Shown here: positions 36,001 through 39,000 of the stretch, piece by piece
Layout of the letters: each line of letters begins with the position of its first letter
Position numbering within the stretch: the first letter of the stretch is position 1
From: Escherichia coli
Lineage (GTDB): Bacteria; Pseudomonadota; Gammaproteobacteria; Enterobacterales; Enterobacteriaceae
Assembly (NCBI RefSeq): GCF_022846255.1
Contig: NZ_AP025682.1
Direction: 5' to 3' (one strand)
DNA length: 64,000 nucleotides
Made by a program: the position numbers

Positions 36001-39000
36001 TTAAGTTCTCACGGCGTGTTGTTAGGTATTTTAGGGTTTTTTATTATAACCGTGTTGTCATCACGTCATTTTCATGCCGCGGTGCTTGTTTCTATTGTGG
36101 TGACGTCTTGCTGTGGATTGTTTTTCGGTGATGTTCATTTTAGCGGCGTCTATTCCATTCCGCCTGATATTAGCGGCGTCATTGGTGAAGTGGATTTGAG
36201 CGGTGCGTTATCACTTGAACTCGCCGGTATCATTTTCTCCTTTATGCTGATCAACTTATTTGATTCATCAGGGACATTAATTGGTGTGACTGATAAAGCT
36301 GGCTTAATAGATAGTAACGGTAAATTCCCCAATATGAATAAGGCGCTGTATGTTGATAGCGTCAGTTCGGCGGCGGGTGCGTTTATCGGTACCTCGTCTG
36401 TTACCGCCTATATTGAAAGTACTTCAGGTGTGGCTGTCGGTGGTCGCACGGGGCTGACGGCTGTCGTAGTTGGCGTTATGTTCCTGTTAGTTATGTTCTT
36501 CTCACCGCTGGTGGCGATGGTTCCTCCTTACGCAACCGCCGGAGCGTTAATCTTTGTTGGCGTGCTGATGACTTCAAGCCTGGCGCGCGTTAACTGGGAT
36601 GATTTTACCGAATCGGTGCCTGCGTTTATTACCACGGTGATGATGCCCTTTACTTTCTCGATCACCGAAGGGATTGCACTAGGCTTTATGTCGTACTGCA
36701 TCATGAAAGTGTGCACCGGGCGCTGGCGCGATCTGAACCTGTGTGTGGTGGTGGTCGCAACTCTGTTTGCACTGAAGATTATTCTGGTGGATTAGTAACT
36801 GGCGAGGGTTTCCAGATATCATGAGTTCTGATTACGCAGGAGAACTCATGATCTGGATAATGCTCGCCACGCTGGCGGTAGTGTTTGTGGTTGGTTTTCG
36901 GGTGCTGACATCCGGGGCCAGAAAAGCGATTCGCCGTCTCAGCGATCGGCTGAACATCGATGTCGTACCCGTGGAGTCGATGGTCGATCAAATGGGAAAG
37001 TCAGCCGGTGACGAATTTTTACGTTATTTGCATCGCCCGGATGAGTCGCACCTGCAAAACGCCGCGCAGGTGTTGCTCATCTGGCAAATTGTCATTGTCG
37101 ATGGTAGCGAACAGAACCTGCTGCAATGGCATCGGATTTTACAAAAAGCCCGCCTTGCCGCGCCGATTACTGATGCTCAGGTCAGGCTGGCGCTGGGTTT
37201 TCTGCGCGAAACCGAACCTGAAATGCAGGATATCAATGCTTTTCAGATGCGCTATAACGCGTTCTTTCAGCCTGCCGAGGGCGTTCACTGGCTGCATTAA
37301 AACCGTTTCGTCTTATCAGCCTACAGACCGCGCCTGACCTGGTGGGTGGATAAGGCGTGTACGTCGCATCCGGTATCGGAATTGACAGTAGGTGAACGCA
37401 TTATCTACGTTCTATTTACAGCAGCACCTCCAGCCCGTGTTTTTGCACAATGCTGAGCAGTTTTAATGAAATGCCATTGGGGCGTTTAGCGCCACTTTCC
37501 CATTTTTGTACAGTTGAAACGCTGGTATTGAGATAGTGAGCGAAGACGGGCTGACTCACTTTTAATTTTTCCCGCAGTGCTTTTATCTCAACAGGTTGTA
37601 AGTCTTGCACGCTGGTCAGGCAGGCTTTGTCGAAAGTACGCATCGTTTCGGCAGAAATAGCATCGACGCTGGACAATCCAGCCGCTGCGCTGTGAATAGC
37701 TTCAAATGCAGGACTTTTAAATTTAGTTTTTGCAGTCATAGCAGATCTCTGTCAGTTCTTTAGTGTTAATCATTGCTGTCAGTTGGGCTTTCGTCAGGAA
37801 GGCATAATGCTTTGCAAGTTCACGAAACCCAGCCAGTTCCTGACTATTAATGTTCGACATATCCTGTTTTGCATATAAAAACGTGTAAAACCAATTGCTT
37901 CCCCCTTTCGCCAGAATAATTGCACGCTCACGATTTTTGTGAAGGCGCTTTTTAAAAACGCCACCACCAAGTACATCAGCTTTACCTTGTTCCGTTTCTA
38001 AAATGGCCCGGCACAACTCTTCATCTGTTATTGCATGAGACCTGGCTTCCCTTGCAAACCATTTGGTTTTAAACACGCGCATATCGTTGAGATCCTGTTA
38101 TTAAAGTATATCACCAAGTGCAATACTTTATCCCTTATTCCCAACCTAATCGCGAAAATGCATATCACCTTGCCCTATGGTTTTTATTTCTTCGAGCAGC
38201 CTCGAACTTTTCCCACAACACCGTAAAAGTTGCAAAAACGTTAAATACGTCACACATTTCAATGTTAAAGTGGTCGGCTTTCCCTCTGAAACATGCCACG
38301 GGTAACACCATGAGTGAATTTATTGCTGAAAACCGCGGCGCGGATGCCATCACCCGACCGAACTGGTCAGCCGTTTTCTCGGTGGCGTTTTGCGTCGCCT
38401 GTCTGATTATCGTTGAGTTTTTGCCTGTCAGTTTGTTGACGCCAATGGCCCAGGATTTAGGCATTTCGGAAGGGGTTGCCGGGCAATCGGTGACCGTGAC
38501 CGCCTTTGTGGCGATGTTTGCCAGTTTGTTTATTACCCAGACTATTCAGGCCACTGACCGCCGCTACGTTGTCATTCTGTTCGCCGTTTTGCTGACGCTT
38601 TCCTGTTTGCTGGTTTCCTTTGCCAACTCATTCAGTCTGCTGTTAATCGGTCGCGCCTGTCTGGGGCTGGCGCTGGGCGGGTTCTGGGCGATGTCGGCGT
38701 CGCTGACCATGCGTCTGGTACCGCCGCGTACGGTGCCGAAGGCGCTGTCGGTGATCTTCGGCGCGGTTTCTATTGCGCTGGTGATTGCCGCGCCGTTGGG
38801 CAGTTTTTTAGGCGAGCTTATCGGTTGGCGCAATGTCTTTAATGCGGCGGCGGCGATGGGCGTGCTGTGTATTTTCTGGATTATCAAATCACTGCCTTCG
38901 CTGCCAGGTGAACCTTCGCATCAGAAACAAAATACTTTCCGCTTATTACAACGTCCGGGAGTGATGGCCGGGATGATCGCCATCTTTATGTCCTTTGCCG

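What the first reader, a model, noticed from the sequence alone, without database searches (positions are those of the whole stretch)
38102..38130. Perfect 8 bp inverted repeat in the promoter region of the putative toxin-antitoxin operon
taaagtat-N13-atacttta lies 20 to 50 bp upstream of the toxin start and is the kind of palindromic operator through which HTH antitoxins autoregulate. It is also inside the divergent nepI upstream region and so could couple the two.
Basis: seen in the sequence. Interest (0 to 1): 0.35.

Follow-up and report, generated by a model that had tools for sequence, protein, structure and literature searches.

The report
Operator-promoter palindrome of E. coli higBA2-like toxin-antitoxin

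Summary
TAAAGTAT-N13-ATACTTTA is at 38102-38130 exactly as reported. It is the outer part of a 29-bp imperfect palindrome (13-nt arms, 11/13 complementary, 3-nt centre, dyad at 38116). On its own it is weakly significant: 6.4% of shuffles of the intergenic region give a perfect IR of at least 8 bp.

The two genes form a HigB2/HigA2-type toxin-antitoxin pair. The toxin is PF06296 and its best fold matches are V. cholerae HigB2. The antitoxin's best PDB match is V. cholerae HigA2.

In 76 of 80 orthologous loci from Gamma-, Beta- and Alphaproteobacteria, a TAGCAC-N3-GTGCTA palindrome lies upstream of the toxin gene. Where a -35 box is recognisable, the palindrome fills the gap to the -10 box and overlaps the -10, as in the footprinted V. 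cholerae HigA2 operator.

The arm nearest the gene carries a predicted extended -10 (TGaTATACT).

The autoregulatory-operator reading is therefore supported, but the arms are not the conserved recognition core. Binding was not tested. Coupling to nepI is not supported: the repeat lies in an ~840-bp cassette absent from 68% of E. coli, and its edge is 86 bp upstream of the ancestral nepI upstream block. This is a new member of a known kind and of low interest.

The parts
38102..38130 (.). 29-bp imperfect palindrome with its dyad at 38116.
   Evidence: The 43 bp around it are exact in 1692 of 1708 E. coli genomes that match. No substitutions fall in the 16 arm positions across the Escherichia alleles compared.
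38109..38123 (-). Predicted antitoxin operator core, TTGCAC-ttg-GTGATA. It is the local version of the family-wide palindrome TAGCAC-N3-GTGCTA, with one deviation per half-site.
   Evidence: CAC-N3-GTG is present upstream of the toxin in 76 of 80 orthologous loci. Positions -7, -5, +5, +6 and +7 carry 1.2-2.0 bits independently of the anchor used for alignment.
38105..38113 (-). Predicted extended -10 promoter element, TGaTATACT (TG at 38113-38112, hexamer TATACT at 38110-38105). It overlaps the promoter-proximal half of the palindrome.
   Evidence: Read from the sequence. The matching columns +3/+4 (TG) and +6, +7, +8, +9, +11 (TATAnT) are conserved in orthologues. No experimental transcription start is available. 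The consensus scan missed it because the -35 is poor.
38093..38096 (-). Shine-Dalgarno AGGA of the toxin gene, 10 nt before the ATG.
   Evidence: Sequence. ACAGGATG is conserved in enterobacterial orthologues.
37723..38082 (-). Toxin gene, 119 aa, Pfam PF06296 (the HigB2 family).
   Evidence: E 4.9e-41. AlphaFold model pLDDT 87. The top 10 PDB fold matches are all V. cholerae HigB2.
37416..37739 (-). Antitoxin gene, 107 aa, with a C-terminal HTH-XRE domain. It overlaps the toxin gene by 17 bp.
   Evidence: HTH_3.: best PDB matches are V. cholerae HigA-2 5jaa/5j9i/8a0w/8a0x, E 8e-10.
37376..38215 (.). Toxin-antitoxin cassette of about 840 bp, with its own promoter region. It is present or absent among E. 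coli strains and always lies between yicN and nepI.
   Evidence: 1716 of 5426 complete genomes carry it. (K-12 lacks it and has about 41 unrelated bp instead).
38216..38309 (+). nepI-proximal upstream block shared with cassette-free K-12. This is the presumed location of the nepI promoter.

Best explanation
The 29-bp palindrome centred at 38116 is the combined promoter and operator of a HigB2/HigA2-type toxin-antitoxin operon (toxin 37723-38082, antitoxin 37416-37739, minus strand). A dimer of the 107-aa HTH antitoxin, alone or with toxin bound to its N-terminal part, most likely binds the central TTGCAC-N3-GTGATA. That site fills the stretch upstream of an extended -10 element (TGaTATACT) and overlaps it. 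Binding would block RNA polymerase and repress the operon's own transcription. The promoter-proximal arm is largely the -10 hexamer. The distal arm covers roughly -32 to -25 of the predicted promoter. The arms may add affinity through backbone, DNA-shape or disordered-tail contacts, but they are not the conserved recognition core. Shown here: the gene families, the conservation of the core palindrome and its position, and the conservation of the element within E. coli. Inferred: the binding itself, the transcription start, and any contribution of the outer arms.
For: Family assignment:
- The toxin matches PF06296 at 4.9e-41. That family includes V. cholerae HigB2 (PMC11980606).
- The predicted toxin fold (pLDDT 87) has V. 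cholerae HigB2 chains as its 10 best PDB matches (prob 0.99-1.0, TM 0.45-0.59).
- The antitoxin HTH matches V. cholerae HigA-2 at E 8e-10.

Experimental precedent:
- V. cholerae HigA2 represses higBA2 through a single footprinted inverted repeat. It starts after the -35 and extends over the -10. Base contacts by the recognition helix are made 3-6 bp from the dyad (PMC11006873).
- A. baumannii HigA2 represses its own promoter, with the toxin acting as co-repressor (PMC5906591).

Conservation across orthologues:
- 76 of 80 orthologous loci (toxin 55-96% identical) have CAC-N3-GTG upstream of the toxin gene. About 3% would be expected by chance per 140 bp.
- In 57 distinct non-Escherichia sequences the consensus is TAGCAC-N3-GTGCTA.
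- Flanking columns carry only 0.1-0.9 bits across Gamma-, Beta- and Alphaproteobacteria.
- In the Beta/Alpha loci a TTGA -35 box lies 17 bp upstream of a TAnnAT -10 box, with the palindrome filling the spacer.
- The antitoxin recognition helix NTSVSTVQKWESG is identical in E. coli and the other Enterobacterales.
- Both E. coli half-site variants recur elsewhere: TTGCAC in L040, L042, L045, L049, L060, L061, L063 and L064; TATCAC in L038, L046 and L048; both together in L063.

Conservation within E. coli:
- The 43 bp around the palindrome are exact in 1692 of 1708 genomes. The next 43 bp are found by megablast in only 711.
- The allele alignment shows 2 variable sites in the 29 bp, both central. 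About 17 variable sites fall in the adjacent 80 bp.
Against: - There is no binding, footprint or transcription-start data for this locus.
- The E. coli core deviates from the family consensus at one position in each half-site, so +-5 and +-6 are not symmetric. Binding might therefore be weaker.
- The right half of the core coincides with the extended -10. Its conservation could be due to the promoter alone. Only the left half (TAGCAC) argues specifically for an operator.
- The -35 region in E. coli is very poor (GGATAA), and the consensus promoter scan found nothing here.
- Conservation within E. coli reflects few independent alleles.
- Some strains carry a frameshifted toxin, so the system is not under uniform selection.
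Confidence: 0.72

Rival explanations
1. One reading: the two perfect 8-bp arms TAAAGTAT and ATACTTTA are the half-sites read by the HTH antitoxin, and the 13 bp between them are a passive spacer.
For: The arms are perfect and invariant in all Escherichia alleles examined. Outer symmetry at +-8 to +-14 is 7 of 7 in Escherichia, against a mean of 2.6 and a maximum of 6 in 43 other distinct lineages.
Against: The arms are not conserved in orthologues that have an identical recognition helix, whereas the 'spacer' is. The arm centres are 21 bp apart, but V. cholerae HigA2 contacts bases 3-6 bp from the dyad on a 17-19 bp site. One arm is largely the predicted -10 hexamer.
Confidence: 0.08
2. There is no operator. 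The conservation reflects only promoter elements (extended -10 and spacer), and the symmetry is chance or a by-product of quasi-palindrome templated mutation.
For: The 8-bp IR alone occurs in 6.4% of shuffles. The right half of the core coincides with TGnTATAnT. The region is AT-rich.
Against: The left half TAGCAC has no promoter role, yet it is conserved as the mirror image of the right half from Alpha- to Gammaproteobacteria. Homologous antitoxins have been shown to bind such a site.
Confidence: 0.1
3. The palindrome is a shared control element that couples the toxin-antitoxin operon to divergent nepI transcription.
For: It lies in the intergenic region between the divergent toxin and nepI genes.
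Against: The palindrome centre is 194 bp upstream of the nepI ATG. It lies inside the cassette, which 68% of E. coli genomes lack. Its nearest edge is 86 bp upstream of the 94-bp nepI-proximal block that K-12 shares. Orthologous cassettes in other genera have unrelated neighbours but keep the palindrome.
Confidence: 0.05
4. The palindrome acts as a nucleic-acid hairpin: an RNA leader structure, a terminator or a cruciform.
For: As single-stranded DNA it folds at -5.5 kcal/mol, z = -3.9 against shuffles.
Against: The predicted transcription start is downstream of the palindrome, so it would not be in the mRNA. The stem is weak and AT-rich, with no T-run. There is no Rfam match. No terminator was called there. 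Orthologues keep the 6-bp core, not a stem.
Confidence: 0.02

Closest known systems
Vibrio cholerae higBA2 operator bound by HigA2 (PMC11006873; PDB 8a0w, 8a0x)
   Same: The toxin is in PF06296 with a HigB2-like fold. The gene order is toxin then antitoxin. The antitoxin has a homologous C-terminal HTH-XRE domain. There is a single inverted repeat upstream of the toxin gene that lies between -35 and -10 and overlaps the -10. The conserved positions (+-2 to +-7) coincide with the zone contacted by the HigA2 recognition helix (+-3 to +-6).
   Different: The operator sequence is unrelated: TAGCAC-N3-GTGCTA (here TTGCAC-N3-GTGATA) against TGTACGC-N5-GCGTACA. All four base-contacting residues differ (R68, E71, N72, R77 become S75, Q78, K79, A84). 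The toxin is only about 21% identical. The E. coli copy adds 8-bp symmetric flanks. No experimental data exist for it.
Acinetobacter baumannii higBA2 on plasmid pAB120 (PMC5906591)
   Same: It is a HigB2/HigA2-type module. The HTH antitoxin represses the operon promoter, and repression is stronger when the toxin is present.
   Different: It is plasmid-borne, and its operator is not mapped at base resolution in the text read. Sequence relatedness to the E. coli pair was not tested here.
Proteus vulgaris (Rts1) HigB-HigA and E. coli MqsR-MqsA operators
   Same: They have reversed gene order, an HTH-XRE antitoxin, and palindromic operators overlapping the promoter.
   Different: The toxin families differ (PF05015/PF09907, PF15723). 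The MqsA models score below their cut-offs (Pfam 26.3 against 30; TIGR03830 41.1 against 61.8), and the match covers only the HTH part of the profile. P. vulgaris HigA uses two operators by my recollection; this was not checked here.

Membership tests
HigB2/HigA2-type type II toxin-antitoxin module | Toxin belongs to Pfam PF06296 with a RelE/BECR fold like V. cholerae HigB2. | tested here: met
   PF06296 at E 4.9e-41, 140 bits against a cut-off of 27. The AlphaFold model (pLDDT 87) has HigB2 chains as its top 10 PDB matches. Sequence-only searches of the PDB found nothing.
HigB2/HigA2-type type II toxin-antitoxin module | Reversed gene order: toxin first, antitoxin second, in one operon. | tested here: met
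   Toxin 38082-37723 and antitoxin 37739-37416 are on the same strand with a 17-bp overlap. The same arrangement is seen in orthologues.
HigB2/HigA2-type type II toxin-antitoxin module | Antitoxin has a C-terminal HTH-XRE DNA-binding and dimerisation domain homologous to HigA2. | tested here: met
   Residues 46-102 align to HigA-2 residues 39-95 at E 8e-10. HTH_3 matches at 6.7e-8.
HigB2/HigA2-type type II toxin-antitoxin module | Antitoxin N-terminal region is disordered, folds on the toxin, and neutralises it. | not tested
   An N-terminal segment of about 45 aa exists and is conserved among orthologues. No disorder prediction, complex model or assay was done.
HigB2/HigA2-type type II toxin-antitoxin module | A single inverted-repeat operator between -35 and -10, overlapping -10. 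| tested here: met
   By sequence architecture only. The core palindrome is conserved in 76 of 80 loci and sits 17 bp downstream of a TTGA -35 in Beta/Alpha loci. It overlaps TAnnnT.
HigB2/HigA2-type type II toxin-antitoxin module | The antitoxin (with or without toxin) actually binds the operator and represses transcription; the toxin is a ribosome-dependent mRNase. | not testable with these tools
   Needs EMSA or footprinting, reporter assays and toxicity assays.
V. cholerae HigA2 operator specificity class (TGTACGC-N5-GCGTACA) | Same operator sequence and the same base-contacting residues (R68, E71, N72, R77). | tested here: not met
   The sequence is TTGCAC-N3-GTGATA, and the aligned residues are S75, Q78, K79 and A84. 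This is the same architecture with a different specificity.
MqsA-type antitoxin | N-terminal zinc-binding CxxC domain, and a full-length match above the family cut-off. | tested here: not met
   Pfam MqsA_antitoxin scores 26.3 bits, below the 30 cut-off. TIGR03830 scores 41.1, below 61.8. Only the HTH part of the profile aligns.

The most novel reading that the evidence does not exclude
In the Escherichia lineage the operator may have been remodelled. Each core half-site carries a mismatch to the family consensus, although the recognition helix is unchanged. Meanwhile the flanks became perfectly symmetric out to +-14. If these flanks are read, for example by the antitoxin's disordered N-terminal tail as in the 'fuzzy' recognition described for V. 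cholerae HigA2, or by DNA shape or bending, this would be a natural case of affinity shifting from direct core readout to flank readout. It might also change the repression set-point of a chromosomally fixed toxin-antitoxin pair.
Probability: 0.15. Interest if true: 0.45.

Novelty: new member of a known kind. Interest (0 to 1): 0.22.

Why it matters
The analysis gives a testable operator and promoter model for an uncharacterised toxin-antitoxin pair carried by about a third of complete E. coli genomes, including the O157:H7 and ST131 genomes sampled. It also yields a consensus operator, TAGCAC-N3-GTGCTA, for a proteobacteria-wide subfamily of HigBA2-like modules. I did not find that consensus in the papers I searched, but I did not search for it specifically. 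The result is a useful annotation rather than a surprise, because self-repression through a promoter-overlapping palindrome is the standard design for this kind of system. It also removes the more speculative idea that the repeat links the toxin-antitoxin pair to nepI.

Tried and rejected
- The sigma-70 consensus scan of 37300-38400 found no promoter at the repeat. The -35 is poor, so I read an extended -10 from the sequence and from conservation instead.
- Sequence searches of the toxin against the PDB, both single sequence and 24-sequence profile, found nothing. A structure prediction followed by Foldseek resolved this.
- The Rfam scan of the region gave only a sub-threshold REP-like naRNA4 hit at 37344-37409 and nothing at the repeat.
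- The hairpin reading was tested and rejected. The stem is weak and the repeat is predicted to be untranscribed.
- A search for further copies of the operator core in the 64-kb window found only the one site, so there is no sign of other targets nearby.
- A tRNA search in nine orthologous loci found none.
- Literature searches for this E. coli locus found no study of it.
- I looked for a link between antitoxin residue 84 (A or V) and half-site variants by eye only. It looked confounded by shared ancestry, so I make no claim.
- The orphan half-site GGTGATAT at 38157-38169 has no partner and is not fully conserved. I do not count it as a second operator.

Full report
**Observation.** The sequence at 38102-38130 is TAAAGTAT-ATCACCAAGTGCA-ATACTTTA, a perfect 8-bp inverted repeat with a 13-bp spacer. 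It is unique in the window. It lies 20-48 bp upstream of the ATG (38082, minus strand) of a 119-aa ORF. A 107-aa ORF follows on the same strand, overlapping by 17 bp. The repeat finder shows that the repeat is the outer part of a longer imperfect palindrome. Its arms are 38102-38114 and 38118-38130, 13 nt long and 11/13 complementary, with a 3-nt centre and the dyad at 38116.

The repeat alone is only weakly significant. In 2000 dinucleotide-preserving shuffles of the 227-bp intergenic region, 6.4% had a perfect IR of at least 8 bp with a spacer of at most 20. Only 1.3% had a 29-mer as symmetric as this one.

**What the genes are.** The 119-aa protein matches Pfam PF06296 across its whole length (E 4.9e-41). 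A 2025 survey lists this family as the one containing V. cholerae HigB2, with toxin-then-antitoxin gene order (PMC11980606). Sequence searches against the PDB found nothing. An AlphaFold model (pLDDT 87) has V. cholerae HigB2 chains as its ten best PDB matches (prob 0.99-1.0, TM 0.45-0.59, about 21% identity).

The 107-aa protein has an HTH_3 domain. Its best PDB matches are V. cholerae HigA-2 (5jaa, 5j9i, 8a0w, 8a0x; E 8e-10 over residues 46-102). The MqsA and NadS models score below their cut-offs. The pair is therefore a HigB2/HigA2-type type II module.

**Genomic setting.**
- The pair is a presence/absence cassette. 1716 of 5426 complete E. coli genomes carry it, always on the chromosome between yicN and nepI.
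- K-12 lacks about 37376-38215 and has about 41 unrelated bp in that place.
- The 94 bp next to nepI (38216-38309) are shared with K-12.
- The palindrome therefore belongs to the cassette's own upstream DNA. Its nearest edge is 86 bp upstream of the ancestral nepI upstream block, and its centre is 194 bp from the nepI ATG.

**Experimental precedent.** For V. cholerae HigA2, footprinting defined a single operator, TGTACGC-N5-GCGTACA. It starts after the -35 and extends over the -10. The crystal structure on a 17-bp fragment shows a dimer whose recognition-helix residues R68, E71, N72 and R77 contact bases at oligo positions 3, 5, 12 and 14. That places the contacts 3-6 bp from the dyad. The footprint covers 24 bp, and the disordered N-terminal tail adds affinity (PMC11006873). 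A. baumannii HigA2 represses its own promoter, and more strongly with the toxin present (PMC5906591). In the E. coli protein the four aligned residues are S75, Q78, K79 and A84, so a different operator sequence is expected.

**Comparative test.** A scan of one genome per species returned 80 loci encoding relatives of the toxin (55-96% identity). They come from Enterobacterales, Betaproteobacteria (Gallionella, Sideroxydans, Vogesella and others) and Alphaproteobacteria (Acetobacteraceae, Rhizobiales). I aligned the upstream regions on the dyad.
- 76 of 80 loci have CAC-N3-GTG within 140 bp upstream of the toxin gene. The chance expectation is about 3% per locus.
- In 57 distinct non-Escherichia sequences the consensus is T-A-G-C-A-C-N3-G-T-G-C-T-A.
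- +-2 to +-4 are fixed by the anchor I used. Positions -7, -6, -5, +5, +6 and +7 are independent of it and carry 1.87, 0.94, 1.16, 1.87, 1.87 and 2.00 bits. The surrounding intergenic columns carry mostly 0.1-0.9 bits.
- Columns +6, +7, +8, +9 and +11 spell TATAnT and are preceded by TG at +3/+4, which is an extended -10.
- In the Beta/Alpha loci, TTGA sits at -17 to -14. This gives a 17-bp spacer that the palindrome fills.

This is the same architecture as the V. cholerae operator. The left half, TAGCAC, has no promoter role. Its conservation as the mirror image of the right half is the specific evidence for a dimeric DNA-binding protein.

**The E. coli copy.** On the toxin strand the window reads GGGA-TAAAGTA-TTGCAC-ttg-GTGATA-TACTTTA-ATAACAGGATCTCAACGAT-ATG.
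- The family core is TTGCAC-ttg-GTGATA (38109-38123). It has one deviation from consensus in each half-site, A to T at -6 and C to A at +5.
- Both variants recur elsewhere next to a consensus partner: TTGCAC in L040, L042, L045, L049, L060, L061, L063 and L064; TATCAC in L038, L046 and L048. L063 has both.
- The antitoxin recognition helix NTSVSTVQKWESG is identical in E. coli and the other Enterobacterales. The same specificity is therefore expected.
- The promoter-proximal arm (38102-38109) is mostly the predicted -10 hexamer TATACT (38110-38105) and the bases after it. The distal arm covers about -32 to -25 of the predicted promoter.
- The -35 position reads GGATAA, which is very poor. The promoter would depend on the extended -10, which explains why the consensus scan missed it.
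- I predict a start near 38097-38099, just before the AGGA at 38096-38093. This is inference.

**Are the outer arms meaningful?**
- Symmetry at +-8 to +-14 is 7 of 7 in all four Escherichia-type sequences. In 43 other distinct lineages the mean is 2.6 and the maximum 6.
- A shorter version, AGTAT...ATACT, occurs in Pluralibacter gergoviae, Klebsiella indica and Citrobacter amalonaticus. Only about three extra symmetric positions are therefore specific to Escherichia.
- Across Escherichia alleles, including two divergent lineages with toxins 92-96% identical, there is no substitution in the 16 arm positions. There are 2 substitutions in the centre (38115, 38122) and about 17 variable sites in the next 80 bp.
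- Across the population, the 43 bp around the palindrome are exact in 1692 of 1708 genomes. The adjacent 43 bp are found by megablast in only 711.

This shows constraint on the promoter/operator block as a whole. It cannot separate promoter, core and flank, and it rests on few independent alleles. I regard a contribution of the arms as open, at roughly even odds. The candidates are backbone or shape contacts, or the disordered tail, within a footprint like the 24 bp seen for V. cholerae HigA2. A mutational origin through quasi-palindrome correction cannot be excluded.

**Coupling to nepI.** This is not supported.
- nepI keeps its proximal 94 bp with or without the cassette.
- 68% of E. coli genomes have nepI without the palindrome.
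- Orthologous cassettes keep the palindrome next to quite different neighbours.
- An indirect effect, such as divergent transcription or supercoiling, is not excluded, but nothing points to it.

**Other readings.** As single-stranded DNA the palindrome folds weakly (-5.5 kcal/mol). It is predicted not to be transcribed, has no T-run, and has no Rfam match. No other copy of the core occurs in the 64-kb window.

**Verdict.** The operator interpretation is supported in kind by homology and phylogenetic footprinting, but the conserved recognition core is the centre of the palindrome, not the 8-bp arms. The nepI idea is not supported. This is a new, uncharacterised member of a well-understood kind: an autoregulatory operator overlapping the promoter of a HigBA2-type toxin-antitoxin operon. 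The family consensus TAGCAC-N3-GTGCTA is a modest by-product. Interest is low.

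Noticed in passing
L007 583-711 and 1199-1383; L016 569-699 and 1193-1383; L011 599-727 and 1198-1383: In Enterobacter, Pectobacterium and Edaphovirga the orthologous toxin-antitoxin pair lies about 120 bp downstream of a STAXI RNA motif (RF01728, 61-65 bits). 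It is about 800 bp from an EFASI motif (RF02957, 100-112 bits). Both motifs are on the opposite strand, in a 1.4-kb stretch with almost no ORFs. By my recollection these motifs are typical of integrative/conjugative mobile DNA, which would suggest the pair travels on such elements outside Escherichia.
   Followed up: partly
window 37344-37409: A REP-type element follows the yicN stop (sub-threshold Rfam naRNA4 hit, 27 bits against 59.5). The left junction of the toxin-antitoxin cassette at about 37376 falls inside this hit, at the point where the alignment with K-12 ends.
   Followed up: partly
L084 1-144 and L085 424-731 (E. coli CUVET20-PYO4 and EC-10); L002 (O157:H7): The toxin gene is annotated as frameshifted in some E. 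coli strains while the antitoxin stays intact. In O157:H7 the toxin ATG is ATA, and annotation starts at the GTG two codons downstream (117 aa). The toxin may be decaying in some lineages.
   Followed up: partly
L083 (E. coli F2_81), equivalent to window 38127-38139: A natural 13-bp deletion removes the outer four bases of the promoter-distal arm and the 9 bp beyond it, leaving the core and the -10 intact. It is a ready-made variant for testing whether the outer arm matters.
   Followed up: no
window 38157-38169: There is an orphan copy of the right half-site and its flank: GGTGATATGCATT on the toxin strand against GGTGATATACTTT in the operator, 54 bp further upstream. It has no left partner and is not fully conserved among E. 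coli alleles. It is probably chance or a remnant.
   Followed up: partly
window 38205-38231: A 7-bp perfect inverted repeat, AACTTTT-N13-AAAAGTT, straddles the junction between the cassette and the K-12-shared nepI upstream block. The sequence just after it, GCAAAAACGTTAAAT, loosely resembles a PurR-type box from memory. This was not tested.
   Followed up: no
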